Assembly: GCA_902521655.1 (NCBI GenBank)
Contig: CABYSM010000003.1
Span: 15,297 to 79,296, forward strand
Direction of reading: 5' to 3'
Length of the DNA: 64,000 nucleotides
From: an uncultured Pelagibacteraceae bacterium
GTDB taxonomy: Bacteria > Pseudomonadota > Alphaproteobacteria > Pelagibacterales > AG-422-B15
Part shown: one piece after another, positions 21,459 to 40,535 of the stretch
Position numbering within the stretch: the first letter of the stretch is position 1
Layout: each line of letters starts with the position of its first letter
Position numbers and translations under genes: made by a program
The notes under the pieces: generated by a model
What the model was told of the DNA's origin: nothing
Seen by the model: the letters and a program-made list of their open reading frames with translations, nothing else
Databases searched by the model: none

Positions 21459-21486
21459 ATTGTACACCTATAAGGTCGTTGGTCAA
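21459..21486 (-). promoter_or_regulatory. Candidate sigma70-type promoter for the binding-protein gene (TTGACC-N16-TACAAT on minus strand)
   Basis: The reverse complement of 21481-21486 is TTGACC and of 21459-21464 is TACAAT. It lies in the 67-nt gap between the amidase stop and the SBP start. Confidence 0.45.
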
Positions 21487-21490
21487 TATA

Positions 21491-22987: not shown

Positions 22988-23039
22988 AAGATTATTTTAT
23001 TTTAATTTATTAATTAATAAAATATATTGAATTCACACC

Positions 23040-24134: not shown

Positions 24135-24148
24135 GTCAGAGATATAAA

Positions 24149-27978: not shown

Positions 27979-28713
27979 ATGAACGTTTGGAAATATTTAC
28001 TCGCAGCTTCTCTTGGCAATATGATTGCAGGTCCTTTAGGTGCATTAGCTTTTACAGCTGGCGCCTTTTTTCTTGGGAAGAAAAGTAATTTTAGAAATCC
28101 TGGTGCAAATTTTAATACGCAGCAAGGTGTTTACGCTCTCGGTTTAGTTGTACTGTGTGCAAAGTTAGCTAAAGCGGATGGTAGAGTCACAGATGACGAA
28201 ATTAGAAAATTTAAAAAGATTTTTAAAATTCCTCAAGAAAATATGAAACAAGTTGGCGCTATCTGGAAAGAAGCTTCACAAACAAGTGCTGGATTTGAAC
28301 CGTATGCTCAGCAATTAAGGGATACTTTTAGCCGATCACCTCAAATCTTAGAGCAAGTAATCATAGGTCTCTTTGAAATTGGTTATGCAGACCATGATTT
28401 ATCTAATCCCGAACTAAAATATATAAAAAAAGTGAGTCAAATATTTGGAATTGATCAGGCAACGTTTAACAGACTGAGAAATTCAAGACCTGAGTTTGTA
28501 AAGGAAGACCCCTACAAAGTATTGGGAGTTAATAAATCACAATCAACATCAGAGATTAAGAAGATCTATCGAAACTTGGCTAGAAAAAATCACCCTGATA
28601 TTGTTAGGGCTAAGGGTATTACTGATAAGAGTTTAATAACTAAAGCTAAAGAAAATTTTCAACGCATTAATGATGCTTATGAACAAGTTCTAAAAATAAG
28701 AGGTGAAAAATAG
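27979..28713 (+). CDS. djlA: DjlA-like membrane co-chaperone (TerB-like domain + C-terminal J domain)
   Basis: 244 aa with an N-terminal TM segment, a TerB-like LAKADGRVTDDEI, and the J domain DPYKVLGVNKSQSTSEIKKIYRNLARKNHPD. Confidence 0.75.
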   Translation: MNVWKYLLAASLGNMIAGPLGALAFTAGAFFLGKKSNFRNPGANFNTQQGVYALGLVVLCAKLAKADGRVTDDEIRKFKKIFKIPQENMKQVGAIWKEASQTSAGFEPYAQQLRDTFSRSPQILEQVIIGLFEIGYADHDLSNPELKYIKKVSQIFGIDQATFNRLRNSRPEFVKEDPYKVLGVNKSQSTSEIKKIYRNLARKNHPDIVRAKGITDKSLITKAKENFQRINDAYEQVLKIRGEK

Positions 28714-28770
28714 GCATAATTTAAATTTTTTTATCAGTTTAAATTAAATGATCACGGGATATACTTAGTT

Positions 28771-28920
28771 ATGGAATTTTTGACATTTATTGCGGTTTGT
28801 ATCTTAATCTATCTTGTATATTTAATCCGTCAGGATTTTAAGGACCATTCAGTGCGTATTGAAAGTCAAATGCAGAGAGTTACTGAAGTGGTCATCAAAA
28901 GCCAAGACAAAGACGAATAA
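28771..28920 (+). CDS. Small single-pass membrane protein (49 aa), unannotated
   Basis: Hand translation gives MEFLTFIAVCILIYLVYLIRQDFKDHSVRIESQMQRVTEVVIKSQDKDE*. It is below the ORF-track size cut-off and has a hydrophobic N-terminal helix followed by a charged tail. Confidence 0.4.
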   Translation: MEFLTFIAVCILIYLVYLIRQDFKDHSVRIESQMQRVTEVVIKSQDKDE

Positions 28921-28923
28921 TAT

Positions 28924-29049
28924 TTATTTTTTCTTACCCCAACTATTTCTTTTTCTATTCCTTATTAATGGCGGATAAGTACCAGTTGATAAGAAGATCT
29001 TGATAAATCTCCACTGTAAGAACCATATTTTTTTTAAAACCTGAAACAT
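28924..29049 (-). CDS. Possible small basic protein (41 aa)
   Basis: Hand translation of the minus strand gives MFQVLKKIWFLQWRFIKIFLSTGTYPPLIRNRKRNSWGKKK*. It is convergent with the 49-aa ORF, 3 nt apart. There is no other support. Confidence 0.2.
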   Translation of the reverse strand: MFQVLKKIWFLQWRFIKIFLSTGTYPPLIRNRKRNSWGKKK

Positions 29050-29117
29050 TTTAGGACTCTTGTTTTAATTAATTATTTTAATTCAATATTTTGGCAAATT
29101 CATTATAAATAATCTTT

Positions 29118-29723
29118 ATGAATACCGACATATCATCTTTTAATCAATGGATAGAGGCTTGGAATCATTTTTATGACAAAGAGAAAGAGTTGGTTGACTT
29201 AGACCCCAACGCTGCACTGGTGTCATCCGTGAGTAGTGATGGTAAGCCTAATGCTAGAGTTATACTTATTAAAGATGTCAGCCAAGAAGGTTTCACTTTT
29301 TATACAAATTATGAATCACAAAAAGGAAAAGAACTTTTTCATAATTCAGAGGGACATTTAACATGGTACAGCCGTGCTCAAGGAGCTTCAATTAGGGTTC
29401 AAGGAAAAGTCGAAAAAATAAACTCAAACTTGTCTGATGAGTATTTTTCTTCACGTGATCGTAATGCACAAATATCAGCAAGTATTTCAAAACAATCTTA
29501 TGATGTTGATAGTCGTGAAGTACTGGATAAAGAATTTCAAGAGTTCGCAGACGCACATGAAGGAAAAGAAATAAAAAGACCCGATCATTGGGGAGGAATA
29601 ATCATTATGCCTTCAAGAGTAGAAGTATGGAAAAGCAGAGATGATTATAAAACTCGACTGCATGACAGAATTGTTTTCACACAATCAAATGATGCATGGA
29701 TAAAGACCAGACTTTACCCATAG
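29118..29723 (+). CDS. pdxH: Pyridoxamine 5'-phosphate oxidase
   Basis: 201 aa with ARVILIKDVSQEGFTFYTNYESQKGKEL, RPDHWGG, RLHDR and a C-terminal RLYP. Confidence 0.9.
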   Translation: MNTDISSFNQWIEAWNHFYDKEKELVDLDPNAALVSSVSSDGKPNARVILIKDVSQEGFTFYTNYESQKGKELFHNSEGHLTWYSRAQGASIRVQGKVEKINSNLSDEYFSSRDRNAQISASISKQSYDVDSREVLDKEFQEFADAHEGKEIKRPDHWGGIIIMPSRVEVWKSRDDYKTRLHDRIVFTQSNDAWIKTRLYP

Positions 29724-29735
29724 AGACTTTGTGAA

Positions 29736-30242
29736 ATGATAAAAATATTTTTAATATTTTCTCTCTCTATTCTGTGGTTACCCAATGTATCAGCAAATGA
29801 TTTGCCAACACCTCGATGGGTAACTTCAAAAAATACAATTAATTGTCGGGCATCATATATTACGGATGAAGAAGGAAAAGCTATGGGTTCTATAAAATAT
29901 CAATATGTAAAAAAATATTTTCCATGGGAAGTCGTCAGGAATATTGATGATCTCTGGGTTCAGGCTAGAGATCCTCTAACTGATGACTTATGTTTTCTTT
30001 TCAGGCCGATTCTATCACCTAAGAGAGCAGCAATTACAAAAGAAGCTGTATTGGGTTACAATAATCCCACAGAAAAGAAGGTCGTGGCTAAAGTTGAAAA
30101 AAATGTACATGGCATGATACTCAAAGCTGATTCAGCTTTTATCTTGTTTGAGGTTTATTTAGAGGAAGAGGGTAAAAAAAGTAAATTCTATATTCCAAAA
30201 AATAAAGTTTTTGGCATTTATCCTAATGAAATCATCAATTGA
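29736..30242 (+). CDS. Exported SH3-like domain protein (COG3807-type, alphaproteobacterial)
   Basis: 168 aa with a signal peptide. The pattern LPTPRWVTSKNTINCRA ... PWEVV...DDLWVQARDP ... SPKRAAIT matches the conserved LPLPRFVSLK..N.R.GP ... W..IRD ... RTA layout. Confidence 0.55.
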   Translation: MIKIFLIFSLSILWLPNVSANDLPTPRWVTSKNTINCRASYITDEEGKAMGSIKYQYVKKYFPWEVVRNIDDLWVQARDPLTDDLCFLFRPILSPKRAAITKEAVLGYNNPTEKKVVAKVEKNVHGMILKADSAFILFEVYLEEEGKKSKFYIPKNKVFGIYPNEIIN

Positions 30243-30247
30243 GTGGT

Positions 30248-30276
30248 TTGAAAAAACGCTTAATTTCTGATATAAT
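30248..30276 (+). promoter_or_regulatory. Near-consensus sigma70-type promoter TTGAAA-N17-TATAAT
   Basis: The -35 element is at 30248-30253 and the -10 at 30271-30276, with an exact 17-nt spacer. It lies about 85 nt upstream of the 30363 start and is followed by a relatively GC-rich leader and an AAAGGGGAAG ribosome-binding region. Confidence 0.55.
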
Positions 30277-30362
30277 CCTAATCTGAAGCGATACATAACT
30301 CACCATTAAAGGAAGCGGGATCGGTCGACTTTTTATTGTTAATTTAATAAAAGGGGAAGCTA

Positions 30363-31538
30363 ATGATTTTTTCTAAATTCCTAAACGCTACAAACTGGCA
30401 TAAGCGTCCATATACTGAAATTCTTGATGAAGTCAGGGAGATTACAGATTATTTAGATCAAAATAGTAATTTTAGACAAGTATGGTTGAGTGAACATCAC
30501 CTACAAACTACAAATAATTGGACAATGGAGTGCATACCCAATCCAATTCTACTGGGCTCAGATCTTGCAGCCCGCACAAAAAATATTCGTATCGGATTAG
30601 CCGCAGCTATCGCAACCTTTTGGAATCCTCTTAGATTAGCTGAGGATGTTGCGCTTTTAGATAACTTGTCATCAGGCAGGTTGGATGTTGGTCTTGGTCG
30701 AGGCGTATTTGGAAAAGAAGCTATTCACATGAACATTGAGGCCGATTTGAAAGATCAGCCAAAAAACTTTCGATTGTTTGTTGAAACACTAGACATATTA
30801 AAGAAGGCTTGGACGCAAGAATACTTTTCACATAAAGGTGAATTCTATGAGTACCCAGCTCCAGAATTTAAATATTCTAATCCACTGTTGAATGAAACAT
30901 CAGATGTTGTTGATCCGGAAACAAATGTCTTAAAGAAAATTAGTATAGTTCCTAAACCGTTTCAAAAAAATCTTCCTTTATGGCAAGTAGTTGATAGCCC
31001 TAGTTCAATTGAGTTTGCTGCAAAGAATGGTCTTAATTGCTTGATGTGGCTACCAACAATTGCTTCCTTGAAGTCACGCTTTGAGATTTATGCAAATACT
31101 AAATCTGAGGTTGAAAAGAGAGATGTTCCTATGGGCGAGGGAATTGCATTGGTTCGTGATTGCTTTATTGCCGATACAATGGAAGAAGCTAAAGAATTAG
31201 CGGGTGAGCATTTTTTAAGATATTTAGTATCTGTTTGTGGCGGAGGCAGAGGAGTAGGCATCTTTGCAAACCCTGGTGAGGAATTACCAAAAACAGATAA
31301 TCCAATTGATCTTTTAACATACGATTGGATCCATCCGAGAAACCAATTAGTAGGTACAGCTGAATTTGTAATCGATAAAATTCACGAATTAAAGTCAGAA
31401 TTAAATCTCCAGCAGTTGGCAATATGGTCAAATCCTCCTGGAATGCCTCACAATGCAGCGATGAAATCATTAAAATTATTTAATGAAAAAGTGGCTCCTC
31501 AATTTAGTGATGATAATTTAATTAAGAAAGTTTCTTAG
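30363..31538 (+). CDS. Luciferase-like (LLM class) flavin-dependent monooxygenase
   Basis: 391 aa. TIM-barrel LLM stretches: VWLSEHH, LAEDVALLDNLSSGRLDVGLGRG. The size is typical of SsuD/LadA-like group C monooxygenases. Confidence 0.7.
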   Translation: MIFSKFLNATNWHKRPYTEILDEVREITDYLDQNSNFRQVWLSEHHLQTTNNWTMECIPNPILLGSDLAARTKNIRIGLAAAIATFWNPLRLAEDVALLDNLSSGRLDVGLGRGVFGKEAIHMNIEADLKDQPKNFRLFVETLDILKKAWTQEYFSHKGEFYEYPAPEFKYSNPLLNETSDVVDPETNVLKKISIVPKPFQKNLPLWQVVDSPSSIEFAAKNGLNCLMWLPTIASLKSRFEIYANTKSEVEKRDVPMGEGIALVRDCFIADTMEEAKELAGEHFLRYLVSVCGGGRGVGIFANPGEELPKTDNPIDLLTYDWIHPRNQLVGTAEFVIDKIHELKSELNLQQLAIWSNPPGMPHNAAMKSLKLFNEKVAPQFSDDNLIKKVS

Positions 31539-33235
31539 TGTCTTCAAAAAAAATGACTGGCGGCGAAGCCGTTGTTGAAACTTTATTGGTAAATGAAGTT
31601 GAGGTGGTTACGGGGCTGATTGGCTCATCGACACTTGAGATCTTGGATGGCCTTTACAATAACGCTGAAAAAATCAGATATATAGGATGCAGACATGAGA
31701 GCAATGGGATGATCATGATGGATGCCTATGCCAGGTATACTGGGAAAAATGGGGTATTTCTGAGTGGCCAAGCAGGTCCGGGAGTAAGCAACACAGTGAC
31801 TGCGATGGCTCAGGCAAAGGCTGCTTTTTCACCAGTTGTTAACCTAGCTGGCGCAATTGCATCAGATCACAAAGGTAAGGATGCTTTTCAGGAAATAGAT
31901 CAAGTCAGTTTGATGCAAGCGGTTTCAAAAAAAGTTTTTGAAGTAAAAGAGGTTGAGTCAATACCAGAAGTTTTAAATGAAGCGATGCAAACAGCACTGA
32001 CACCACGGTGCGGCCCTGTTCATGTAGATATGCCTAGAGATGTTTTAGGTAAATCAGCTGAATTTAATCAGCCTACGAAATTTAAATCTATATCAACTTT
32101 AGCTGCTGATGAGGAAAGTTTAAAAAAAGCTGTAAAGCTTTTAAGTGAAGCACATAAACCTGTAATTCTAGTTGGAGCAGGAGTTAAGAATTACGGAACA
32201 AGTGCAGCAGATAGTGTTTTAAAGTTAGCTGAACTTCTCAATGCCCCATGTACCACTTCTCCAGGACACGGTGATGCAATTCCATATAGTCATCCGTTAA
32301 ATGCGGGATCAGCCGGCCCTCGTGGATCAGGGTTAGGAACAAAACTTTTAAGAGAGGCGGATGTGATTCTAGTTTTAGGAAGTCGATTAGGTTTTAATAC
32401 AACGTTCTATTCTTACGAGAACCTAAATGAAAAAGCTTCAATTATACAATGTGAAATAGATCTGAATTCGATAGGCCGATATTTTCCTGTTGAAGTAGGC
32501 ATACATGCTGATGCTAAAACTGTAACTGATGAGCTTTCTAAAATGCTTGAAGCACACAAGTCAAAAAAAGAAGTACAAGATTGGTCAGATCAATTCAAAG
32601 ACAATAGAAAAAATTATTTTGATAAAAGAGATGCTGACGCGGATACTAAAAGTGTACCAATTTTACCTTCAGGATTATTTAAAGAATTAAGGGGAGCCTT
32701 GCCGGAGGATTGTGTCGTAACTTTGGATGCAGGCACAATGTGCCTCCAGTTAACTGATGCACTTCAATATCATCAACCAAAGAGTTTATTTTCACCACTC
32801 GATTTTGGGCTGGTTGGATTTTCTTATCCTGCTGGACTAGGAATAAAACTTGCAGCCCCTGAAAGACCCGTAGTTTCTTTTCATGGAGATGGTGGCATGT
32901 CCATGGTTATCCCAGAGCTTTCAACTGCAATCGAAAATAATATTAATACTGTTATATGTGTCATGAATAACGGCACGTGGGGCGCTGAAGCGGCCTACCA
33001 AAAAGATTTTTTTGAGGGACGTTTTATTGGCGCTCATATCACAACTCCTGAGTTTGATAAAGTTGCTGAATTGTATGGATGTAAGGGCATAAAGGTTGAA
33101 AAAGCAGGAGAAATTGGAGATGCGATTAAAGCCGGAATTGAGGCTGACTGCCCAACAGTAATCGATGTTCAATGTTCCCCTGATGCACTATATTCATTCA
33201 GGCAGGACTCATTTAAACATAAAGTAAAACAGTAG
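31538..33235 (+). CDS. Thiamine-diphosphate-dependent enzyme (acetolactate-synthase-large-subunit-like)
   Basis: 565 aa with a GTG start sharing 1 nt with the upstream TAG. The N-terminal Pyr domain has GGEAVVETLL..VE.V.G and GPGVSN. The ThDP motif is GDGGMSMVIPELSTAIENNINTVICVMNNG. Confidence 0.8.
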   Translation: MSSKKMTGGEAVVETLLVNEVEVVTGLIGSSTLEILDGLYNNAEKIRYIGCRHESNGMIMMDAYARYTGKNGVFLSGQAGPGVSNTVTAMAQAKAAFSPVVNLAGAIASDHKGKDAFQEIDQVSLMQAVSKKVFEVKEVESIPEVLNEAMQTALTPRCGPVHVDMPRDVLGKSAEFNQPTKFKSISTLAADEESLKKAVKLLSEAHKPVILVGAGVKNYGTSAADSVLKLAELLNAPCTTSPGHGDAIPYSHPLNAGSAGPRGSGLGTKLLREADVILVLGSRLGFNTTFYSYENLNEKASIIQCEIDLNSIGRYFPVEVGIHADAKTVTDELSKMLEAHKSKKEVQDWSDQFKDNRKNYFDKRDADADTKSVPILPSGLFKELRGALPEDCVVTLDAGTMCLQLTDALQYHQPKSLFSPLDFGLVGFSYPAGLGIKLAAPERPVVSFHGDGGMSMVIPELSTAIENNINTVICVMNNGTWGAEAAYQKDFFEGRFIGAHITTPEFDKVAELYGCKGIKVEKAGEIGDAIKAGIEADCPTVIDVQCSPDALYSFRQDSFKHKVKQ

Positions 33236-33244
33236 GATCATATT

Positions 33245-33826
33245 ATGACACTTGAAATCAGGAAGATGTGTAAGTTTGTTGATACAACATATGTTGAAGA
33301 TTTTAAAAAATGTGATGAACCTGTAGTTTTAGTATCTGTCGCAGCAGTAATTACAAACCCATGGGTTGACCAAGGGTATGTAGAAGACCTGAAGCCTACA
33401 ATTTTAGAGATAGCCCCAAAGCTTGGTGATTTTTTAGTTGGTGAGCTATTAGATGAAATTGGTTCTCCAGAAAAAGTCTTAGCCTACGGTAAGGCGAGTA
33501 TGACAGGGATGCGTGGAAGCATACAACATGCAAGCGCACTGATTCATACGTTACATTTTGGCAATAAATTTCGAGATGCTGTTGGAGGAACATCCTATCT
33601 TTCATTTACCAATGTACGTGGACTTGCAGCTTCAAAAATATCAATCCCTATGATGCACAAAACAGATCCTGGTTTGAGACAATTTTATTTAACTCATGAG
33701 TTTACAATTCATGATGCTCCTGGTCCTGCTGAATTAGTTATAGCAATTGGCGCAAGTACTACTCCTCAAGCTCATCATCGTATCGGAAACCGTTATGAAG
33801 ATGAAAAGGAAATGGGACTGAAATAA
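33245..33826 (+). CDS. 'Amino acid synthesis' family protein (DUF1185/PF06684-like), function unknown
   Basis: 193 aa. The stretches AAVITNPW, YVEDLKP, HASALIHTLHFGN.FRDAVGG.SYL.FTN and IPMMHK match my recollection of this family. No profile search was run. Confidence 0.55.
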   Translation: MTLEIRKMCKFVDTTYVEDFKKCDEPVVLVSVAAVITNPWVDQGYVEDLKPTILEIAPKLGDFLVGELLDEIGSPEKVLAYGKASMTGMRGSIQHASALIHTLHFGNKFRDAVGGTSYLSFTNVRGLAASKISIPMMHKTDPGLRQFYLTHEFTIHDAPGPAELVIAIGASTTPQAHHRIGNRYEDEKEMGLK

Positions 33827-33831
33827 TATTC

Positions 33832-34617
33832 ATGTCATTTCGTGAAGGACTTGACGATCAAGGTACATATTATCAATTTAATGAAGTTGCTGGCACTACT
33901 CCCGTAGTATTTATTCACGGGGTTGGTTTAAGTTTAGAAATTTGGAACCCCCAAAGAGATTTTTTTAAAAATCATTCAACAATTGTATACGACTTATATA
34001 GTCATGGAAGAACCACGAGCGCTGATGACATTACCTTCGATAACTTTTCCAATCAAATTGATGGCCTCATGCAATACTTAAAATACCCTTCATGCCATTT
34101 AATAGGTTTTTCCTTAGGCGGGTTAATCGCTGCTCACTATGCTTCAACGAGATCAAATAAGATTAATAAATTAATTTTATTTGGGACCATCTATGGTCGA
34201 AGTGCCGAACAACAGCAAGAAGCCATTAAAAGGTATGAAAATGTTTCTAAAGACTATTTTGATATTCCTAAACAATTGAGCAGATGGTTTAATGAGGATT
34301 ATTTAAAAAAAAATCCTAATGAGAGCCAATTGATCGCAGCAATCTTAGAAAAAAATGATCATCAAGAGTTCTTAAAATCATACAAATTGTTCTCTTATTT
34401 CCAAGATAATATGATTTTGTTTAATCAAATTTCAGCTCCTACATTAATTGTAACCGGAGAGAATGAGGTGGGGTCAACTCCTGAAATGTCGAAAAAGATT
34501 GGGGAAATAGTTAAAAATAGTAAAGTAGAGATCATTCCTGATGGCAAACATATGTGTGGTATGGAATGTGCAGACAAGGTTAATCAAGTATTTGGAAACT
34601 TTTTAAATGACAGCTAA
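33832..34617 (+). CDS. Alpha/beta-fold hydrolase
   Basis: 261 aa with an oxyanion region VVFIHGVG, nucleophile elbow GFSLGG and a C-terminal His context DGKHMCGME. Confidence 0.75.
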   Translation: MSFREGLDDQGTYYQFNEVAGTTPVVFIHGVGLSLEIWNPQRDFFKNHSTIVYDLYSHGRTTSADDITFDNFSNQIDGLMQYLKYPSCHLIGFSLGGLIAAHYASTRSNKINKLILFGTIYGRSAEQQQEAIKRYENVSKDYFDIPKQLSRWFNEDYLKKNPNESQLIAAILEKNDHQEFLKSYKLFSYFQDNMILFNQISAPTLIVTGENEVGSTPEMSKKIGEIVKNSKVEIIPDGKHMCGMECADKVNQVFGNFLNDS

Positions 34618-36079
34618 CAATATCCAGAATTATCAAATGTTCATAGATGGTCAATGGACTGAAGCAGAAAACAATCAAAGATTCGAAAGTACTAATCCTG
34701 AGAATAATAAACCTTGGTCTTCATTTCCAAATGCAACAGTCAATGATGTTAACAATGCTGTTGCAGCCGCTAAAAATGCATTTAAGTCGTGGTCATCAAG
34801 TGATGTAAAAATAAGAGCTCAATATCTTCGGGCAATAGGGGATCAGCTTAAGAATAACGCTGAGCATATTGGAAAAATAGAAACTATAGATAGTGGTAAA
34901 CTATGGAAGGAAACAAAATTTCAAGCTGAATATATGAAAGATTATTTTTACTATTATGCAGAGTTAGCTGAGAAAATGGAAAATACAAAAATTATTTCTG
35001 ATATAGATAAGCCTGATATGGAAGTTACTGAAGTAAGTGAACCAATAGGTGTTATCGCATGTATCATTCCGTGGAATTCACAGATGTTTTTAACAGCGAC
35101 TAAAGTTGCACCTGCACTGGCTGCAGGGAATACAGTGGTGATAAAATCATCAGAACTTGCTCCAGCTCCTTTAGCTGAATTTGCAAAATTAACAGAACAA
35201 GTAGAATTACCAAAAGGTGTAATAAATCTAGTGAGCGGTGGTGCAGAAGTTGGGAAAAATTTAACATCCCATAAAGATATAGGCAAAGTACTCTTTACTG
35301 GCGGGACCGAAACAGGATCTCATGTAATAAGAAATACAGCTAAAAATTTTGCACAGTTAACCCTTGAACTTGGAGGGAAATCGCCGGTTATAGTATTTGA
35401 GGACGCAGATATAGAGAATGCATTAAATAATATTACGACTGCTATCTTTTCTGGAAATGGCTGCAGTTGCATAGCTGGATCAGTATTGCTTCTGCATGAT
35501 AAAATTTATGATGAATTTCTTCATCAATTAAAAAATAGAGCTGAGAGTATTAAATTGGGTTCACCGCTTGATGCAGAAACTCAAATGGGACCATTAAATA
35601 ATCTCAAACAAGTAGAGTTCATCGAAAAAAACATTGAGTTATCTATTAAACAAGGAGCTAAAATATTATGTGGTGGCAAGCGGCAAAATAATTGTTATTT
35701 CCCACCAACAATTATTGAGTGTCCAGACAAATCAATCAATACAGCTAACACAGAACTTTTTGGACCAGTTCTCTCTGTGATCAGATTTAGTTCTGAAGCA
35801 GAGGCCGTAAATTTAGCAAATGATAATCGCTATGGCCTTTCATCAGGTGTGTTTAGTGAAAATAAAGAAATATGTGAGAGAGTGAGCAAAAAGATTGAAG
35901 CTGGTATTTGTTTTACAAATTGTTATAGGTTTATTTCATACGCTGCAAGTTTTGGCGGTAGAAAAAATAGTGGCTATGGACGAGAGAGCGGAGCTGAAGC
36001 AATAAGAGATATGCAATTAAGAAAAACTATCTGGACCTCAACTGCAAGAGTAACAGAGGACCCATTTAAGATCAGATAA
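34607..36079 (+). CDS. NAD(P)+-dependent aldehyde dehydrogenase
   Basis: 490 aa with FTGGTETG, the catalytic-Glu context LELGGKSP, the Cys region GNGCSCIAGS and EEIFGP-like TELFGPV. Confidence 0.85.
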   Translation: MTANNIQNYQMFIDGQWTEAENNQRFESTNPENNKPWSSFPNATVNDVNNAVAAAKNAFKSWSSSDVKIRAQYLRAIGDQLKNNAEHIGKIETIDSGKLWKETKFQAEYMKDYFYYYAELAEKMENTKIISDIDKPDMEVTEVSEPIGVIACIIPWNSQMFLTATKVAPALAAGNTVVIKSSELAPAPLAEFAKLTEQVELPKGVINLVSGGAEVGKNLTSHKDIGKVLFTGGTETGSHVIRNTAKNFAQLTLELGGKSPVIVFEDADIENALNNITTAIFSGNGCSCIAGSVLLLHDKIYDEFLHQLKNRAESIKLGSPLDAETQMGPLNNLKQVEFIEKNIELSIKQGAKILCGGKRQNNCYFPPTIIECPDKSINTANTELFGPVLSVIRFSSEAEAVNLANDNRYGLSSGVFSENKEICERVSKKIEAGICFTNCYRFISYAASFGGRKNSGYGRESGAEAIRDMQLRKTIWTSTARVTEDPFKIR

Positions 36080-36090
36080 ATACTTTTATT

Positions 36091-36360
36091 ATGTCTAGTA
36101 AACTTGAACAAGATATCTCAAAACTTGATTATTTATTGAATCAAATAAAAGAACCAATTGTTTGTGTTAAATGCTCAGATGAATTAACTCAAGGCCTAAC
36201 AGATGCAAAATCTATTCAGGATTATTCTAGAATCGATGTGGGTTTTACGAATCGAGGCCTTCAAATTTGGTGTCAAAGACATCAACTAAACATATGCCAC
36301 ATTAATTTTGATGGAAGTGAGCCAGAAGCAGACTTCAGGTGCCTTGAAAAAATAAAATAA
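36091..36360 (+). CDS. Small Cys/His-containing protein, unknown function
   Basis: 89 aa with C25-x2-C28, then C61, H64, C69-H70 and C84. It is the last gene of the 30363 operon, 11 nt after the ALDH stop. Confidence 0.45.
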   Translation: MSSKLEQDISKLDYLLNQIKEPIVCVKCSDELTQGLTDAKSIQDYSRIDVGFTNRGLQIWCQRHQLNICHINFDGSEPEADFRCLEKIK

Positions 36361-36464
36361 AATTTCAGTCTTGTTTTTTTTAATTTGATGATAATATAAG
36401 AATCAAAGAATGGGGCAAACCCCCTGATTTCTTGAAATGCAATGTTTTAAGAGGGAGAAAAAAC

Positions 36465-37892
36465 ATGACAAAAATAGTAATTTACGACTTAGAAACTTCA
36501 GGCATCGACTCAGCTTTTTCATCAATTTTACAGGCCGCGGCAGTATGTGTTGATGAAAATTTTAACGAAATAGATAGATTTAATTTAAGAGGAAAAATGA
36601 AGAAAGAGTACCCAATTCCTCACCCTAAAGCTTTATTAGTTAATGATGTTAGTGTTGACCAACTGCAAAATCATGAAAATTCAAATTTTTCTCTCATCAG
36701 TGAGATTCAGAAAAAGTTTCTCTCTTGGGGAGAGTGTATTTTTATTGGTTATAATTCTATAGGATTTGACGAGCATCATTTAAGACAAAGTTTTTATCAA
36801 TCAGCACTACCACCTTATTTAACAAATACGAATGGAAATAAAAGAGGTGACGCTTTAAAGTTGCTCCACACAGCATCAGCTTCACACCCCAATGCCTTTG
36901 TACGACCTATAAACAATGATACAGGAAAGCCAACTTTCCAACTATCTGAATTTGCTCGAGTTAATAACATTTCACAAGAGAAAGCTCATGACGCATTATA
37001 TGACGTTGAAGCAACTTTAGAGGTTTGCAGATTAATAAAAGAAAGATGTCCTGATGTATGGGTATCCGCAATGCAAACTGCTTCTAAATCTGATGTTTAT
37101 GCAAAAATAGATCAGGATAAAGTTTTTTGTGCAAGTCGTTTCTTTAGGGGAAAAGAATATACACATGGTATCACTTACTTAACAAAAAACCCAAGTTACG
37201 AGAATCATATTTATTGTTTTGACTTAAAGCATGATCCAGAAACTATATTTGATTTAGATAGAGCTGATTTAAAGAAGTTGTTTAAAGGAAAAAATAAATG
37301 CTTTCATATTATTAAAGCTAACGAACAGCCCATATTACTCGATGAGCAGTATTTATACCAAAGCGAAGAGTATAAAAATGAAAACCCAGATACAATTGCT
37401 AAACGAATGAAAATGATTAGATCAAACAAATCATTTATTGAGAAATTTCAAAATTTATTGATCGATATGCAGGATGATAAAAATTTAAGTCAAGATCAGT
37501 CTGATAAACCACTCGAGAGGCAAATATATGATGGATTTCCAGACTCAAAAGATAATTATTTAATGTCAGATTTTCATGCTGCGATTCCTGAAAAAAAATT
37601 TGAAATTGCAGAGAAGATTAAGGATATGCGCTACAAAGAATTTGCGAAGAGGGTTATGTATAATGAATATTCAGACTATTTGCCCGAAAAAGAGCTAATA
37701 AAAAGAGATCAGCTAGTAGCAAGAAATCACCTCACCTTAGATGAGAAATCTTGGTGTACAATTCCACAAGCGCTTAATGCAATTGATGACTTAAGAGAGT
37801 CTGAAGAAGAAGTTAATCTGTCACGCCTTGATGAAATAGATGAATATATACAACGTTTAGGTAATGCGTTTGAGGAAAGGTTAAAGGGTTAA
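36465..37892 (+). CDS. sbcB: Exodeoxyribonuclease I
   Basis: DEDDh motifs: IVIYDLETSG, GYNSIGFDEHHLR and HDALYDV. Starting at the ATG at 36465 gives 475 aa and places GAGGGAG upstream. The track's TTG at 36432 is unlikely. Confidence 0.85.
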   Translation: MTKIVIYDLETSGIDSAFSSILQAAAVCVDENFNEIDRFNLRGKMKKEYPIPHPKALLVNDVSVDQLQNHENSNFSLISEIQKKFLSWGECIFIGYNSIGFDEHHLRQSFYQSALPPYLTNTNGNKRGDALKLLHTASASHPNAFVRPINNDTGKPTFQLSEFARVNNISQEKAHDALYDVEATLEVCRLIKERCPDVWVSAMQTASKSDVYAKIDQDKVFCASRFFRGKEYTHGITYLTKNPSYENHIYCFDLKHDPETIFDLDRADLKKLFKGKNKCFHIIKANEQPILLDEQYLYQSEEYKNENPDTIAKRMKMIRSNKSFIEKFQNLLIDMQDDKNLSQDQSDKPLERQIYDGFPDSKDNYLMSDFHAAIPEKKFEIAEKIKDMRYKEFAKRVMYNEYSDYLPEKELIKRDQLVARNHLTLDEKSWCTIPQALNAIDDLRESEEEVNLSRLDEIDEYIQRLGNAFEERLKG

Positions 37893-37895
37893 GTC

Positions 37896-38822
37896 ATGGA
37901 GAATTATTTATTATCAATTTTTATAATCATTATTATTGCGGTTATCAGTTTCTTAATTGGTCTCTACATGAGATCATCAAAATCACTTTCAGGAGTTGAC
38001 GAAATTTTTAAAAAATTAGACGAAGAAAGTGCTAAATGGGATGACCGATATCAGCCTGTAAGAGAATTATCTGATGCGCTTAAAGGCGGAACGAGGAGAG
38101 GTAAGCTTGGTGAAGTTGCCCTTGAAATACTTTTGGAAAGAGCACGCCTTCCTAAAATGATAGTTTTTGACCGAAATAAAAGATTTCAAGATAGTGAAAA
38201 TAAAATAAAAGAACCGGATTTTATAATCCATCTGCCTGATGAGAGACAACTGGTAATTGATTGCAAGTTTTCTTTTGATGACTGGGAAAAATATAATAAG
38301 GCTATAGAACAAGGGGAGTCAAAGAAACAAATTGAATTGTATCATAAAGAGTATATTCGTTCAGTAAAGAAGATGATAGATGATACACATGAACGTGATT
38401 ACTCAAAACTACCTGATATTAAATCTATAGACGCAACAATAATATATTTCCCTTTAGCAAACGTATTTGAATCATTTGAAGATCAATTTCAAGATCTTAT
38501 TGAATATGCTCAAGATAAAAATATTCTTTTATCAAATCCAACAATAATTATTTACATAATCAGCATAGTGAGAAAACTTTGGTCGCAGGAACAAAGAAAT
38601 AAAAACAATGATTTGGTAAAAACTTATGTTGAGCGTATCTATGACCAAATTGAGGGATTAGACTCTACTTTGAAAAAAAATATTAAAAGTCTAGAAGGTG
38701 TGACAGAGGATACTAGAAAGTTAAGAAAGAAACTGAGAGAAGGCAATAATAGCTTGGTCGAATTAGCTAAGAAAGTAATTGATTTGATAATTGGTACACC
38801 AAAAAAGAAAATGGATGATTAA
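37896..38822 (+). CDS. rmuC: DNA recombination protein RmuC (short form)
   Basis: 308 aa with an N-terminal TM segment, RGKLGEVALEILLE and PDFIIHLPDERQLVIDCKF (restriction-endonuclease-like core). Confidence 0.75.
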   Translation: MENYLLSIFIIIIIAVISFLIGLYMRSSKSLSGVDEIFKKLDEESAKWDDRYQPVRELSDALKGGTRRGKLGEVALEILLERARLPKMIVFDRNKRFQDSENKIKEPDFIIHLPDERQLVIDCKFSFDDWEKYNKAIEQGESKKQIELYHKEYIRSVKKMIDDTHERDYSKLPDIKSIDATIIYFPLANVFESFEDQFQDLIEYAQDKNILLSNPTIIIYIISIVRKLWSQEQRNKNNDLVKTYVERIYDQIEGLDSTLKKNIKSLEGVTEDTRKLRKKLREGNNSLVELAKKVIDLIIGTPKKKMDD

Positions 38823-38873
38823 AAAAATATAATAAAATCAATATTTTAATAACATTTTTAGTGGCCTTTAACC

Positions 38874-38902
38874 TTGACTTTAGGCCTCTCCGTACTTACA
38901 TT
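38874..38902 (+). promoter_or_regulatory. Candidate sigma70-type promoter TTGACT-N17-TACATT upstream of trxA
   Basis: The -35 element is at 38874-38879 and the -10 at 38897-38902. An AAAGGAA ribosome-binding region precedes the ATG at 38929. Confidence 0.45.
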
Positions 38903-38928
38903 ACAACCAACTCAATAAAGGAATCACT

Positions 38929-39252
38929 ATGGCTACGAAAAATATTACAGACGCAACTTTTGAGGAAGAAGTTTTAAAATCTGATAAACCTGTCGTACTC
39001 GATTTTTGGGCGCCTTGGTGCGGTCCTTGTAAAATGATTGGTCCATCTTTAGAAGAAATCTCAGACGAAATGGCTGATAAGATTACTGTTGCTAAAGTCA
39101 ACATTGATGAGAATCCAGAAACGCCTACTAAATATGGTGTAAGAGGAATCCCAACAATGCTTGTATTTAAAAATGGTGAAGCTGCAGCAACTAAAGTTGG
39201 AGCTGTATCAAAGACAGCTATCGTGGAGTGGATTGAAGACTCAATCGCCTAA
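38929..39252 (+). CDS. trxA: Thioredoxin
   Basis: 107 aa with the active site WAPWCGPCK. Confidence 0.95.
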   Translation: MATKNITDATFEEEVLKSDKPVVLDFWAPWCGPCKMIGPSLEEISDEMADKITVAKVNIDENPETPTKYGVRGIPTMLVFKNGEAAATKVGAVSKTAIVEWIEDSIA

Positions 39253-40535
39253 TTAACTTCTAAAACTTTTCCAGCTAGATATAGAGAGCCGCAAATTAAT
39301 ATGCGTGTATTCTCATTTGCTTCATTAACACTTTTTACTGCTTCAGAAATTGAACTTGAAATTGTAACTTTGGAACATTGATCTTTAAGTTTATTTTTGA
39401 GTTCATCTGCTGGGATTGCATTGTCCTCACTCGGAATCGTTATTGTTGTAATCGAGAAGCAATTGCTAAATTGTCTGATATAGGCTTCAGGATCTTTTGT
39501 ATTAATCATTCCAATAATGATGCATAACTTTTTTTCTGGCAAATTCTTGAGTGTCTTATTCAAATTAAATGCAGCATCAACATTATGTGATCCATCTAAG
39601 TAAAGTTCATTTGATGGTTTCATTTTTGAATATAACTTACCATCCTCTATTTTTTGCATTCGGCCAGGGAAATAAATAGATTTATGTTTTTGGTCTTTTA
39701 AGAATTCTCTTACCTCTATGTTTGGTAATTGAGATATTGCAGCAATTGCAAGCCCAATATTTTTCTTTTGAAATTCATTTTGATCATCGAAATTAGAAAA
39801 TTCTAATGTACTTGTATCGTCTTCATAAATGAGGGCGCCATTTTGTTCCGTCATGTTCCAGTGTATTCCATGAGCAAAAACAGGAGCTTCATTGTGCTCT
39901 GCTTGATTTATCAACATCTCTTTTGCTTCAGGATAGGGTTGATACCCAATAATTGCCGGAGTCTTAGGTTTAATAATACCAGATTTTTCGAATGCAATTT
40001 TCTCAATGCTATTCCCCAGGAAATCCTGGTGATCGAAAGATATTGATGAAATTATTGAGATTAATGGGTCTATTACATTACTGCTATCAAGTCTTCCGCC
40101 AAGCCCTACCTCTAGCAGAGTATAATCAGTACGTGAGTTTGATGCCGCCTCAAAAAATGCTCCAGAAGTACTTTCAAAAAATGTTATTTCTGAACCTTCA
40201 TTTATGTTCTTAATTTTGTTTAAAAGATCAAATAAGTCTTCATTTGTTATTTGTTTATCATTTAACTCAAAACGTTCATTAAATCTGACCAGATGAGGAG
40301 ATATGTAGGCATTGGTAGACTTATTATTGTATCTGAGTATTTCTTGAATAAATCTTAGTGTAGAATATTTTCCATTAGTACCTGCTATATGCAATATATT
40401 GTTAATTTTGTTTTGTGGATTTCCTAACTTATTTAAAAGTATTTTAATTCGATCTAAAGAAAGATCGATTTTCTTAGGGTGTAGTTTTAATAATTCTTCT
40501 AAAAGATTATCGATTTGAACATTAGAGATACTCAA
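39249..40535 (-). CDS. folC: Bifunctional folylpolyglutamate synthase / dihydrofolate synthase
   Basis: 428 aa with the P-loop HIAGTNGKYST and Mur-ligase layout. It has a 4-nt convergent overlap with trxA. Confidence 0.85.
   Translation of the reverse strand: MSISNVQIDNLLEELLKLHPKKIDLSLDRIKILLNKLGNPQNKINNILHIAGTNGKYSTLRFIQEILRYNNKSTNAYISPHLVRFNERFELNDKQITNEDLFDLLNKIKNINEGSEITFFESTSGAFFEAASNSRTDYTLLEVGLGGRLDSSNVIDPLISIISSISFDHQDFLGNSIEKIAFEKSGIIKPKTPAIIGYQPYPEAKEMLINQAEHNEAPVFAHGIHWNMTEQNGALIYEDDTSTLEFSNFDDQNEFQKKNIGLAIAAISQLPNIEVREFLKDQKHKSIYFPGRMQKIEDGKLYSKMKPSNELYLDGSHNVDAAFNLNKTLKNLPEKKLCIIIGMINTKDPEAYIRQFSNCFSITTITIPSEDNAIPADELKNKLKDQCSKVTISSSISEAVKSVNEANENTRILICGSLYLAGKVLEVN

What the first reader, a model, noticed from the sequence alone, without database searches (positions are those of the whole stretch)
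30248..36360. Six-gene operon of unassigned function: LLM monooxygenase, ThDP enzyme, 'amino acid synthesis' DUF, alpha/beta hydrolase, ALDH and a small Cys/His protein
Seen: a near-consensus promoter (TTGAAA-N17-TATAAT, 30248-30276) precedes six tightly packed plus-strand genes. The junctions are a 1-nt overlap, 9 nt, 5 nt, an 11-nt overlap and 11 nt. The operon is followed by the only GC hairpin in the area (GGGG-caaa-CCCC, 36412-36423).

Established:
- LLM-class enzymes oxygenate or cleave C-S, C-N or C-C bonds using reduced flavin.
- ALS-like ThDP enzymes make or break C-C bonds next to a carbonyl. Xsc, benzoylformate decarboxylase and oxalyl-CoA decarboxylase all share this fold.
- The PF06684-type family has no established biochemical function.

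Inference: oxygenase, C-C lyase, hydrolase and aldehyde oxidation together look like a self-contained degradation route for a small organic compound. An organosulfonate or an alpha-hydroxy/alpha-keto compound are candidates, but nothing in the sequence decides. No flavin reductase, transporter or regulator is encoded in the operon.
Basis: partly seen in the sequence, partly recalled or inferred. Interest (0 to 1): 0.6.

Follow-up and report, generated by a model that had tools for sequence, protein, structure and literature searches.

The report
SAR11 trigonelline-like catabolic cassette with leader RNA
This is a five-gene cassette, common in the abundant ocean bacterium SAR11, whose later steps match the known pathway that breaks down the plant and algal osmolyte trigonelline, but it uses a different ring-opening oxygenase and follows a highly conserved, undescribed leader RNA that looks like a riboswitch.

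Summary
The observed genes, junctions and promoter are real. The interpretation "unassigned function" is not correct.

**Match to the trigonelline (tgn) cluster**
- The DUF1185 protein is 52-55% identical to TgnF.
- The ALDH is 44-47% identical to TgnC.
- The alpha/beta hydrolase is 27-32% identical to TgnD, with catalytic motifs kept.
- These proteins act on the ring-opened product and release formate, methylamine, CO2 and succinate semialdehyde.

**Differences from the tgn cluster**
- The LLM is only 25-27% identical to TgnB, so it is a non-orthologous LLM subfamily.
- No TgnA flavin reductase is linked.
- The Xsc-like ThDP gene is an accessory, present in 44 of 69 species loci.
- The 89-aa Cys/His gene belongs to the chromosomal backbone, not the cassette.

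**Distribution**
- The window is SAR11 (Pelagibacteraceae).
- LLM-[ThDP]-DUF1185-hydrolase-ALDH keeps this order in most of the SAR11 species loci retrieved.

**Leader RNA (new)**
- A 46-nt leader at 30286-30331 is nearly invariant upstream of the LLM in all SAR11 loci.
- It has a variable hairpin with compensatory changes, followed by a hairpin that sequesters the Shine-Dalgarno site.
- It matches no Rfam family.
- Copies of it also flank inserted genomic islands.

**Verdict:** a new variant of a known pathway, plus a candidate new riboswitch.

The parts
30248..30276 (+). Sigma-70-type promoter, TTGAAA-N17-(TG)TATAAT. The predicted transcription start is about 30283-30285, immediately before the leader motif.
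   Evidence: 11 of 12 positions, the best site in 28500-39500. The -35 element is conserved in relatives with 92-100% LLM identity.
30286..30331 (+). Conserved leader RNA motif, a candidate riboswitch aptamer. Layout: P1 (GCGA/UCGY), internal loop UACAUAA / AUCGG, P2a (CUCR/YGGG), AAG bulge, then P2b, a hairpin of variable length.
   Evidence: Nineteen invariant positions across 57 SAR11 sequences whose LLM proteins are 56-100% identical. The covariance model R1 gives one hit in the window (62 bits, E 1e-13) and one per SAR11 locus, always upstream of the LLM. In the proposed structure 91.6% and 94.1% of cells pair, against 34-48% in slid controls, and all four P2b pairs show double changes in the metagenome set. 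No Rfam 15 family matches.
30329..30354 (+). Second leader hairpin (CUUUUUAUUG / UAAUAAAAGG) that pairs a U-rich strand with the start of the Shine-Dalgarno site. This is the putative expression platform.
   Evidence: predicted in the window and, with different sequences, in L040, L051, L022 and L019.
30363..31538 (+). Luciferase-like monooxygenase (LLM), 391 aa. It is the presumed flavin-dependent ring-opening oxygenase component and belongs to a different subfamily from TgnB.
   Evidence: PF00296, E 1e-40. It is 25-27% identical to TgnB over the full length. No TgnB-type protein appeared among the relatives looked up: of the ten closest full-length representative clusters, the four with taxon names are Actinomycetota (three) and Dehalococcoidia (one), and the best TgnB match among all fetched proteins is only about 29%.
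31538..33235 (+). ThDP-dependent enzyme of the ALS/Xsc-like family, 565 aa from the GTG or 560 aa from the ATG at 31553. It is an accessory gene of the cassette.
   Evidence: Three TPP domains. The GDG-X25-NN motif and the catalytic Glu are present. It scores below the Xsc cut-offs. It is present in 44 and absent in 25 of 69 species loci. The best cultured homologue is 41% identical, in a Ruegeria pomeroyi amine-catabolic operon.
33245..33826 (+). DUF1185 / PF06684 protein of the TgnF clade, 193 aa.
   Evidence: It is 52-55% identical to TgnF of annotated tgn clusters. Plasmid hits are bimodal: 47-55% for one group, and all five canonical-type clusters examined from it sit in F-D-A-B-C tgn order, against 34% or less for the rest; the one low-identity hit examined lies in a different context.
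33832..34617 (+). Alpha/beta hydrolase, TgnD-like, 261 aa. It is the predicted hydrolase of the N-acyl-aminomethylene-succinate intermediate.
   Evidence: It is 27-30% identical to TgnD and 32% to the Mesorhizobium variant. The HGVG, G-x-S-x-G and C-terminal His motifs are conserved. It is adjacent to the TgnF-like gene, as in every canonical tgn cluster examined.
34607..36079 (+). Aldehyde dehydrogenase, TgnC-like, 490 aa. It is the predicted dehydrogenase of the ring-opened lactol/aldehyde.
   Evidence: It is 44-45% identical to TgnC against 30% to the SSADH TgnE. The best hits among 72,556 plasmids include the ALDH genes of the tgn clusters already examined (PK01 tgnC, Marivivens, Leisingera) and ALDHs overlapping an LLM gene, at 45-47%. 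The catalytic Glu and Cys are conserved.
36091..36360 (+). An 89-aa Cys/His protein. It is a backbone gene next to exoI, not part of the cassette.
   Evidence: No Pfam hit. Homologues of 69-78% identity lie between an SNase gene and exoI in SAR11 genomes without the operon. It is absent next to the operon in relatives with LLM identity of 95% or less.
36411..36426 (+). Weak terminator-like hairpin, GGGGcaaaCCCC followed by a T-rich tail.
   Evidence: It is not conserved: the spacer is missing in most close relatives.

Best explanation
The five genes at 30363-36079 are the SAR11 version of the trigonelline-type (tgn-like) route for catabolism of a pyridine-3-carboxylate ring.

**Proposed pathway**
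1. The LLM, using reduced flavin supplied by a reductase encoded elsewhere, opens an N-heterocyclic ring. Trigonelline (N-methylnicotinate) is the leading candidate substrate. (Inferred.)
2. The TgnC-like ALDH oxidises the resulting lactol/aldehyde to the diacid. (Homology shown; reaction inferred from TgnC.)
3. The TgnD-like alpha/beta hydrolase, helped by the TgnF-like DUF1185 protein, splits the diacid into formate, methylamine (or another amine), CO2 and succinate semialdehyde. (Homology shown; reaction inferred from TgnD and TgnF.)

**Other components**
- The ThDP enzyme is a lineage-variable accessory of unknown step. It possibly acts on the aldehyde end-product.
- Expression is controlled by a conserved leader RNA placed between a strong promoter and the start codon. 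A ligand-dependent fold of the 46-nt motif would decide whether the adjacent hairpin hides the Shine-Dalgarno site. (Inferred.)
- The cassette sits in a variable chromosomal slot. Copies of its leader motif flank inserted islands.
For: **Reference cluster.** An Acinetobacter plasmid is annotated GntR | AA_synth - a/b hydrolase - tgnA - tgnB - tgnC, with a permease and an SSADH nearby. The same F-D-A-B-C order occurs in S. meliloti pSymA, Aquabacterium, Leisingera and Marivivens.

**Identities to the window proteins.** TgnF 52-55%, TgnC 44-45% (TgnE 30%), TgnD 27-30%, TgnB 25-27%.

**Clade tests**
- DUF1185 plasmid hits fall into two groups, 47-55% and 34% or less. The high-identity hits examined lie in tgn or tgn-variant clusters, and the one low-identity hit examined does not.
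- The best ALDH plasmid hits include the ALDH genes of tgn clusters already examined.
- The organism spectrum of the hydrolase hits mirrors that of the TgnF hits.
- Catalytic motifs are kept.

**Literature**
- TgnB has an LLM domain (PMC11354265).
- TgnF is a DUF1185 protein that stimulates TgnE (PMC7913881).

**Synteny.** LLM-[ThDP]-DUF1185-hydrolase-ALDH keeps this order in most of the 80 GTDB species loci, at 37-100% protein identity. The exact DUF1185 protein is indexed in 825 blocks of the assembly collection.

**Leader.**

**Ecology.** Trigonelline is a measured marine metabolite (PMC8269262).
Against: - **The LLM is not a TgnB orthologue.** It is 25-27% identical, against 72% between gamma- and alphaproteobacterial TgnB. 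A Mesorhizobium variant cluster has the same TgnF and TgnC divergence as SAR11 yet keeps 40% TgnB identity. The substrate could therefore differ.
- **No flavin reductase is linked**.
- **No SSADH is in the cassette.**
- **The ThDP gene has no counterpart** in the tgn clusters examined, and its role is unexplained.
- **Hydrolase identity is low** (27-32%).
- **I could not read the primary tgn paper** (PMC5948990 is not held). The reaction chemistry therefore rests on my recollection of its abstract, on PGAP product names and on secondary citations.
- **Leader limits.** P1 and P2a are almost invariant, so covariation supports only P2b. Single-sequence folding is no more stable than shuffles (z from -1.2 to +0.3). 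No ligand is known.
Confidence: 0.6

Rival explanations
1. The module is tgn-like, but the substrate is another N-heterocycle or amine-bearing ring rather than trigonelline. Candidates are nicotinate, N-methylnicotinamide or another phytoplankton pyridinium compound. The distinct LLM subfamily would set the specificity, and the F/D/C enzymes would process an analogous N-acyl-aminomethylene-succinate intermediate.
For: The LLM is only 25-27% identical to TgnB. Its nearest relatives outside SAR11 lie in other contexts rich in amidohydrolase and RidA genes, for example the Glaciihabitans cluster LLM-RidA-ALDH. A Mesorhizobium variant shows that the F/D/C module occurs with diverged oxygenases and different transporters.
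Against: The TgnF-like and TgnC-like proteins are as close to canonical Tgn proteins as those of the Mesorhizobium variant. Trigonelline is abundant in seawater particulates (PMC8269262). No alternative substrate is indicated by any gene.
Confidence: 0.3
2. This is an organosulfonate or alpha-keto compound route. An SsuD-like LLM would desulfonate and an Xsc-like ThDP enzyme would cleave sulfoacetaldehyde.
For: The best NCBIfam models for the ThDP protein are the Xsc models, at 405-425 bits. Authentic Xsc is 31-33% identical.
Against: Both Xsc scores are far below the cut-offs of 620 and 676. The LLM matches no SsuD model, and its SfnG score is 46 bits against a cut-off of 383. ThDP is absent from 25 of 69 loci while the other four genes stay. 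TauE is near the cluster in only 5 loci, with or without ThDP. Three genes belong to tgn clades.
Confidence: 0.03
3. The conserved leader is not a riboswitch. It would instead be a DNA operator for a trans-acting regulator, or simply a recombination (att) site kept by integrases.
For: P1 and P2a show almost no covariation. Motif copies flank a 9-kb glpK-ugp-glpD island, and in other contigs motif copies lie next to integrase-like ORFs. Predicted folding energy is not exceptional.
Against: The P2b hairpin varies from 4 to about 50 nt in its loop and has compensatory changes in all four pairs. Most helices contain G-U pairs (U-G invariant in P2a; G-U in 43 of 80 sequences at the P1 end), which pair only on the sense strand. 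The position is fixed, a median of 36 nt before the start codon. A hairpin that occludes the Shine-Dalgarno site follows it in divergent sequences. No regulator gene is linked. Att sites are normally conserved because they lie in functional RNA or protein genes.
Confidence: 0.3

Closest known systems
Trigonelline catabolic cluster tgnABCDEF of Acinetobacter baylyi ADP1 (Perchat et al. 2018). Seen here as annotated clusters on the Acinetobacter sp. PK01 plasmid, S. meliloti pSymA, and Leisingera and Marivivens plasmids.
   Same: It has a DUF1185 (TgnF) gene directly followed by an alpha/beta hydrolase (TgnD), an ALDH of the TgnC clade, and an LLM-class oxygenase in the same operon. The predicted logic is the same: flavin-dependent ring opening, then oxidation, then hydrolysis.
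   Different: The LLM belongs to another subfamily (391 aa against 345 aa, 25-27% identity). There is no TgnA reductase, no TgnE SSADH, no GntR regulator and no dedicated transporter. The gene order is B'-(ThDP)-F-D-C instead of F-D-A-B-C. There is an extra ThDP gene in two thirds of lineages, and an RNA leader in place of a protein regulator.
Mesorhizobium variant tgn-like cluster (NZ_AP023256.1: DUF1185 | HTH | flavin reductase-ALDH-LLM-hydrolase-amino-acid ABC transporter)
   Same: It shows that the F/D/C module exists in diverged versions with rearranged order. Its hydrolase is the best plasmid match to the SAR11 hydrolase, at 32%.
   Different: It keeps a TgnA-type reductase and a TgnB-type LLM (40% identical to TgnB). 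SAR11 has neither.
Homarine operon homABCDER (PMC13236597)
   Same: It is also a catabolic operon for an N-methylated pyridine-carboxylate osmolyte, and is reported in SAR11.
   Different: It uses different protein families: HomA with an FAD domain, HomB, HomC (a peptidase) and HomD. It has no LLM, DUF1185 or alpha/beta hydrolase, and its products are N-methylglutamate and glutamate.
Sulfoacetaldehyde acetyltransferase Xsc and ALS-like ThDP enzymes
   Same: The ThDP gene has the three-domain fold, the GDG...NN motif and the catalytic Glu. The Xsc models are its best NCBIfam hits.
   Different: The scores are far below the Xsc cut-offs. The nearest cultured homologue (41%) lies in a R. pomeroyi operon with an MttB-family methyltransferase, a class III aminotransferase and two FAD oxidoreductases.
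Small translational riboswitches of SAR11 and alphaproteobacteria (for example SAM-II/SAM-V and glycine; PMC2704228)
   Same: It is a short conserved 5' leader, followed by a structure that occludes the Shine-Dalgarno site, in a lineage poor in protein regulators.
   Different: The sequence and structure match no Rfam 15 family. The ligand is unknown. Copies also mark island insertion points.

Membership tests
tgn (trigonelline catabolism) cluster | A TgnF-clade DUF1185 protein encoded next to the hydrolase | tested here: met
   It is 52-55% identical to TgnF. Identities are bimodal (47-55% against 34% or less), and the high-identity hits examined lie in tgn or tgn-variant clusters. It is adjacent to the hydrolase with a 5-nt gap.
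tgn (trigonelline catabolism) cluster | A TgnC-type aldehyde dehydrogenase (MFMB dehydrogenase) | tested here: met
   It is 44-47% identical to TgnC against 30% to TgnE. The top plasmid hits include the ALDH genes of tgn clusters already examined, and the catalytic Glu and Cys are kept. Substrate not tested.
tgn (trigonelline catabolism) cluster | A TgnD-type alpha/beta hydrolase (MFMS hydrolase) | tested here: inconclusive
   It is 27-32% identical over the full length. TgnD itself is only 51% identical between gamma and alpha clusters and 29-31% to the Mesorhizobium variant. Catalytic motifs are conserved, and so is its position after the TgnF-like gene.
tgn (trigonelline catabolism) cluster | A TgnB-orthologous LLM oxygenase component | tested here: not met
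   It is 25-27% identical, against 72% among canonical clusters and 40% in the Mesorhizobium variant. The best TgnB match among all fetched proteins, including the 150 closest representative clusters, is about 29%.
tgn (trigonelline catabolism) cluster | A TgnA flavin reductase encoded beside the oxygenase | tested here: not met
   tblastn with two TgnA proteins finds nothing in the 64-kb window or in 86 SAR11 loci. The rest of the genome could not be tested.
tgn (trigonelline catabolism) cluster | Growth on, or turnover of, trigonelline to methylamine, formate and succinate | not testable with these tools
   This needs enzymology or culture work. No paper in the library links SAR11 to tgn genes.
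Alkanesulfonate/sulfoacetaldehyde route (SsuD, Xsc) | The LLM reaches the SsuD model and the ThDP enzyme reaches the Xsc equivalog cut-off | tested here: not met
   There is no SsuD hit. The Xsc models score 405 and 425 bits against cut-offs of 676 and 620.
Riboswitch / cis-regulatory leader RNA | A conserved element at a fixed position in the 5' UTR of one gene family, on the sense strand | tested here: met
   There is one hit per SAR11 locus, always upstream of the LLM. Of 98 evaluable metagenome matches, 80 have the LLM downstream, a median of 36 nt away.
Riboswitch / cis-regulatory leader RNA | A secondary structure supported by covariation | tested here: inconclusive
   P2b shows double changes in all four pairs, reached by 0 of 500 shuffles, and 94% of cells pair against 35-48% when slid. 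P1 and P2a are nearly invariant. The alignment was fitted to the model.
Riboswitch / cis-regulatory leader RNA | Membership of a described RNA family | tested here: not met
   Rfam 15 gives no match at E up to 1 over 11.5 kb, and no meaningful match at E up to 10 over 141 nt. The motif is not among the SAR11 motifs of PMC2704228.
Riboswitch / cis-regulatory leader RNA | Specific ligand binding that changes expression | not testable with these tools
   This needs in-line probing, ITC or reporter assays.

The most novel reading that the evidence does not exclude
The 46-nt leader is a new riboswitch class that senses trigonelline, a related N-methylated pyridinium osmolyte or a pathway intermediate. 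It would control a SAR11-specific ring-cleavage cassette built around a new LLM oxygenase subfamily. The same RNA gene segment would serve as the attachment site through which genomic islands enter SAR11 chromosomes, as tRNA genes do in other bacteria.
Probability: 0.25. Interest if true: 0.85.

Novelty: new variant of a known kind. Interest (0 to 1): 0.66.

Why it matters
SAR11 is the most abundant heterotroph in the ocean, and its streamlined genome keeps few catabolic operons.

- **Metabolic role.** A widespread cassette would add a defined sink for trigonelline-type osmolytes released by phytoplankton. The LLM matched at least 548 GTDB species genomes, and the exact DUF1185 protein is indexed in 825 blocks of the assembly collection. 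The pathway would also supply methylamine, formate and C4 carbon, which fits the known C1 and amine metabolism of SAR11.
- **Testable enzymology.** It gives PF06684 and a new LLM subfamily a concrete, testable biochemical setting.
- **The leader RNA.** This may be the more valuable part. It is a short, extremely conserved and undescribed candidate riboswitch tied to a single gene family, so the ligand search is narrow. Its reuse as an island insertion site would be an unusual link between gene regulation and genome plasticity in SAR11.

Tried and rejected
1. **Primary tgn paper.** It could not be opened by DOI or PMC id. I first recalled TgnC as the ThDP enzyme. The PGAP-annotated cluster shows that TgnC is an ALDH-family protein of 489 aa, so that idea was dropped.
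2. **Homarine operon.** Considered and rejected because it uses different protein families.
3. **LLM homologue search.** The first homologous-protein run with the LLM returned only unnamed marine sequences. tblastn of the LLM against plasmids at E 1e-30 gave a single 29% hit. The DUF1185 query was the one that led to annotated clusters.
4. **Nearest LLM relatives outside SAR11.** None of the three contexts examined is a tgn-like cluster.
5. **ThDP enzyme as a substitute flavin reductase.** No support. By eye, the RFDDR-type FAD-contact motif I recall from acetohydroxyacid synthases reads SRLGFN here (own knowledge). The gene is also dispensable in a third of lineages.
6. **Linked transporter.** An EamA permease follows the ALDH in 21 of 66 loci but is not homologous to the window's EamA gene. 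TauE linkage was rejected.
7. **PDB sequence searches.** No close solved structure for any of the four enzymes.
8. **RNAalifold on the raw MAFFT alignment.** It gave a weak, partly different consensus of -0.7 kcal/mol. I used a hand-derived structure instead.
9. **Viral contigs.** The three pattern matches are chance hits; the best scores 23 bits and lies inside an ORF.
10. **Integrase assignment.** The ORF next to island-side motif copies has only a sub-threshold Arm-DNA-bind_3 hit, E 0.039.
11. **One literature search was wasted** on ambiguous "Tgn" terms.

Full report
**1. Observation**

The six plus-strand ORFs and their junctions are as described. Pfam assigns them as follows:

| ORF | Pfam assignment |
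|---|---|
| 30363-31538 | Bac_luciferase |
| 31538-33235 | TPP_enzyme_N, TPP_enzyme_M, TPP_enzyme_C |
| 33245-33826 | AA_synth (PF06684) |
| 33832-34617 | Abhydrolase_1 |
| 34607-36079 | Aldedh |
| 36091-36360 | none |

- None of the proteins reaches the curated cut-off of any NCBIfam model.
- The promoter at 30248-30276 matches 11 of 12 consensus positions and has an extended -10 TG. It is the best site in 11 kb.
- The GGGGcaaaCCCC hairpin is a weak terminator-like site. There are 8 such sites in the region against 5.8 expected.

**2. Source and distribution**

- The exact DUF1185 protein is indexed in 825 blocks of the public assembly collection. The flanks are the same in the six places shown, including two NCBI assemblies.
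- A genome scan with an LLM alignment found at least 548 GTDB species genomes that encode a relative. The best 80 are almost all Pelagibacteraceae or Pelagibacterales, that is, SAR11. The window's LLM is 100% identical to that of the single-cell genome AG-430-P03. Cultured strains nBUS_33, nBUS_49, nBUS_36, HIMB1611 and HIMB1506 are among the hits.
- tblastn of the window proteins shows the conserved order LLM-[ThDP]-DUF1185-hydrolase-ALDH at 37-100% identity.
- The ThDP gene is present in 44 and absent in 25 of 69 species loci with an intact junction. In the loci without it, the LLM and DUF1185 genes are 3-38 nt apart.

**3. The sixth gene is not part of the unit**

- In the loci collected around the LLM, the 89-aa protein was found beside the operon only in the closest relatives.
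- The protein family has 87 clusters at 63-98% identity.
- In SAR11 single-cell genomes L222-L224 the order is EamA, DjlA-like, pdxH, cation efflux, SH3, SNase, small protein, exoI, rmuC, thioredoxin, folC. This is the window's backbone without the operon.
- The five-gene cassette and its leader therefore occupy a variable slot between pdxH and the small gene.

**4. Identification of the pathway**

A paper on coumarin degradation states that a DUF1185 protein, TgnF, stimulates the TgnE succinate-semialdehyde dehydrogenase of the trigonelline pathway of Acinetobacter baylyi (PMC7913881).

tblastn of the window's DUF1185 protein against plasmids found 371 records. One is an Acinetobacter plasmid that PGAP annotates as GntR | amino acid synthesis family protein, alpha/beta hydrolase, tgnA (flavin reductase), tgnB (LLM oxygenase), tgnC (an ALDH-family dehydrogenase), permease, SSADH. 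The F-D-A-B-C order recurs in S. meliloti pSymA, Aquabacterium, Leisingera and Marivivens.

Pairwise identities:

| Protein | SAR11 vs canonical tgn | Gamma vs alpha canonical | Mesorhizobium variant vs canonical |
|---|---|---|---|
| TgnF (DUF1185) | 52-55% | 71% | 51-53% |
| TgnC (ALDH) | 44-45% (TgnE 30%) | 72% | 45% |
| TgnD (hydrolase) | 27-30% | 51% | 29-31% |
| TgnB (LLM) | 25-27% | 72% | 40-41% |
| TgnA (flavin reductase) | none found | 41% | 33-35% |

At the same F and C divergence as the Mesorhizobium variant, the SAR11 hydrolase is as expected for an orthologue. The SAR11 LLM is far more distant than expected.

Further checks:
- DUF1185 identities to the window protein are bimodal, 47-55% and 34% or less. 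The high-identity hits examined lie in tgn or tgn-variant clusters, and the one low-identity hit examined lies elsewhere.
- The best ALDH hits in the plasmid collection include the ALDH genes of tgn clusters already examined.
- Catalytic motifs of the hydrolase and the ALDH are conserved.
- An exhaustive search shows that the SAR11 LLM forms its own 50% cluster. Its closest full-length relatives are 33-45% identical. Of the ten looked up, four carry a taxon name: Glaciihabitans and two Actinomycetota records, and one Dehalococcoidia record. None is a TgnB-type protein.
- The three contexts of those relatives that I examined are not tgn-like. One of them, Glaciihabitans LLM-RidA-ALDH beside isochorismatase and amidohydrolase genes, is another cluster of N-heterocycle type.
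- No TgnA-like reductase is encoded in the window or in 86 loci.

**5. Mechanism**

What is shown:
- Three of the four core proteins are homologous to TgnF, TgnC and TgnD.
- An LLM is co-transcribed with them.
- This arrangement is conserved.

What is inferred from the tgn pathway (secondary sources, PGAP product names and my recollection of the primary abstract):
1. The LLM, with reduced flavin, opens the ring.
2. The ALDH oxidises the lactol.
3. The hydrolase releases formate, an amine, CO2 and succinate semialdehyde, with the DUF1185 protein assisting.

Trigonelline is the most economical substrate, and it is a measured marine metabolite (PMC8269262). The non-orthologous LLM leaves room for another ring compound.

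The ThDP enzyme keeps the GDG-X25-NN motif and the catalytic Glu. It is 31-33% identical to Xsc, and 41% identical to a R. pomeroyi protein encoded with an MttB-family methyltransferase, a class III aminotransferase and two FAD oxidoreductases. That context suggests a substrate downstream of an aminotransferase, that is, an aldehyde or 2-oxo acid. I can only speculate that in SAR11 it handles the aldehyde end-product.

**6. The leader RNA**

Conservation:
- Alignment of the region upstream of the LLM gene shows that the 5' leader is more conserved than the promoter or the proteins.
- Across 57 distinct sequences, 19 positions are invariant. The consensus is GCGAUACAUAACUC-R-YCGU-[variable loop]-ACGR-AAG-Y-GGGAUCGGUCG.

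Proposed fold:
- It is one interrupted hairpin: P1, an internal loop (UACAUAA / AUCGG), P2a, an AAG bulge, and a variable P2b.
- In the genome set 91.6% of cells pair, against 34-46% when the partners are slid.
- In 80 distinct metagenome sequences 94.1% pair. All four P2b pairs show double changes, and none of 500 shuffles reaches five such pairs. That alignment was fitted to the model.
- G-U pairs in P1, P2a and P2b mean the fold exists only on the sense strand.

Distribution:
- The covariance model finds one copy in the window (62 bits, E 1e-13). It finds one copy per SAR11 locus, always just before the LLM, and none in non-SAR11 tgn clusters.
- A metagenome pattern scan hit at least 120 contigs. 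In 80 of 98 evaluable cases the LLM follows, a median of 36 nt away.

Expression platform and novelty:
- A second hairpin directly after the motif pairs a U-rich strand with the Shine-Dalgarno site. It appears in the window (30329-30354) and, with different sequences, in distant relatives.
- Rfam 15 has no matching family.
- The published SAR11 RNA motifs do not include it.
- No paper in the library links Pelagibacter, a riboswitch and a luciferase-like monooxygenase.

I read this as a candidate riboswitch with translational control. The ligand is unknown, and the ON or OFF logic is undetermined. A DNA operator cannot be excluded.

**7. Islands at the motif**

- Some genuine motif copies are not followed by the LLM.
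- Contig L154 has two copies 9 kb apart. They flank glpK, a ugp-like ABC transporter, DUF2160 and a DAO oxidoreductase, the genes that precede the LLM in strain nBUS_33.
- The upstream copy carries the flank of the island-free strain nBUS_36, and the sequence breaks right after GGGAUCGAUCG.
- Other contigs have a motif copy followed by a C/T-rich stretch and an ORF, partly decayed, that weakly resembles an integrase arm-binding domain.
- The motif therefore seems to be used as an insertion site for islands.

**8. Verdict**

The cassette is a new variant of a known pathway. It has the tgn-type later-step enzymes (TgnF-, TgnD- and TgnC-like), a new LLM subfamily, no linked reductase, an optional ThDP enzyme and RNA-based control in place of a GntR regulator. 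It is widespread in SAR11, and I found no description of it in the literature I could search.

Noticed in passing
L154 1226-1279 and 10400-10459 (minus strand); compare L040 2605-9876 and L051 9870-10003: Two copies of the leader motif flank a 9-kb island carrying glpK, a ugp-like ABC transporter, DUF2160 and a DAO oxidoreductase. The upstream copy has the flank of an island-free strain, and the sequence diverges right after GGGATCGATCG. The motif therefore behaves like an attachment site.
   Followed up: partly
L171 5174-5732; L172, L213, L099, L185, L182: Motif copies not followed by the LLM are followed by a conserved C/T-rich stretch and an ORF (MKQPT..NNPP..IEFTNSAIEKL..). The ORF weakly matches an integrase arm DNA-binding domain (E 0.039) and is truncated or decayed in several contigs.
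   Followed up: partly
window 36432-38822, compared with L001-L010 and L012: The exoI and rmuC genes just downstream are 99-100% identical to SAG AG-461-F16 (L012). They are only 67% and 31-32% identical to those of other SAGs whose LLM is 99-100% identical. This implies a recombination breakpoint right after the small ORF.
   Followed up: no
window 9044-25519: Upstream lies a long amine-catabolic region. It carries two FAD amine oxidase-like genes, a GcvT-like aminomethyltransferase, a class III aminotransferase, a Rieske oxygenase, a DAO oxidoreductase, a polyamine-type ABC transporter, an amidase, a GbcA-like catalytic domain without a Rieske domain, and a glutamine synthetase-like protein below every NCBIfam cut-off. 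That last protein could be a gamma-glutamyl-amine synthetase able to take up methylamine.
   Followed up: partly
L040 12868-13497; also L047, L052, L071: In four SAR11 species loci, including cultured strains nBUS_33 and nBUS_49, a class I SAM-dependent methyltransferase gene is inserted between the ThDP and DUF1185 genes.
   Followed up: no
L089 (Ruegeria pomeroyi megaplasmid NC_006569.1, 339974-349294): The nearest cultured homologue of the ThDP enzyme ends an operon made of an MttB-family methyltransferase, a class III aminotransferase and two 800-aa FAD oxidoreductases, under a LysR regulator. It looks like an uncharacterised quaternary-amine pathway that ends in an Xsc-like step.
   Followed up: no
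L096 (Mesorhizobium plasmid NZ_AP023256.1, 199761-209766): This is a rearranged tgn-like cluster: divergent DUF1185, an HTH regulator, flavin reductase, ALDH, LLM, hydrolase and an amino-acid ABC transporter. Its proteins are only 29-53% identical to canonical Tgn proteins, so it may have a different substrate.
   Followed up: partly
L217 (Glaciihabitans tibetensis PVTL01000001.1): A 39% relative of the SAR11 LLM heads an operon of LLM, RidA, ALDH, an OYE-type oxidoreductase, SDR, GMC oxidoreductase and ALDH. It lies opposite isochorismatase and amidohydrolase genes. The logic is Rut-like, for an unknown N-heterocycle.
   Followed up: no
window 29736-30242: This is a 168-aa ORF with an N-terminal hydrophobic, signal-like segment and no Pfam or NCBIfam hit. 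It lies between pdxH and the promoter. It is conserved at 33-60% in relatives with 92-95% LLM identity. In operon-free genomes an SH3-domain protein occupies the same position.
   Followed up: no
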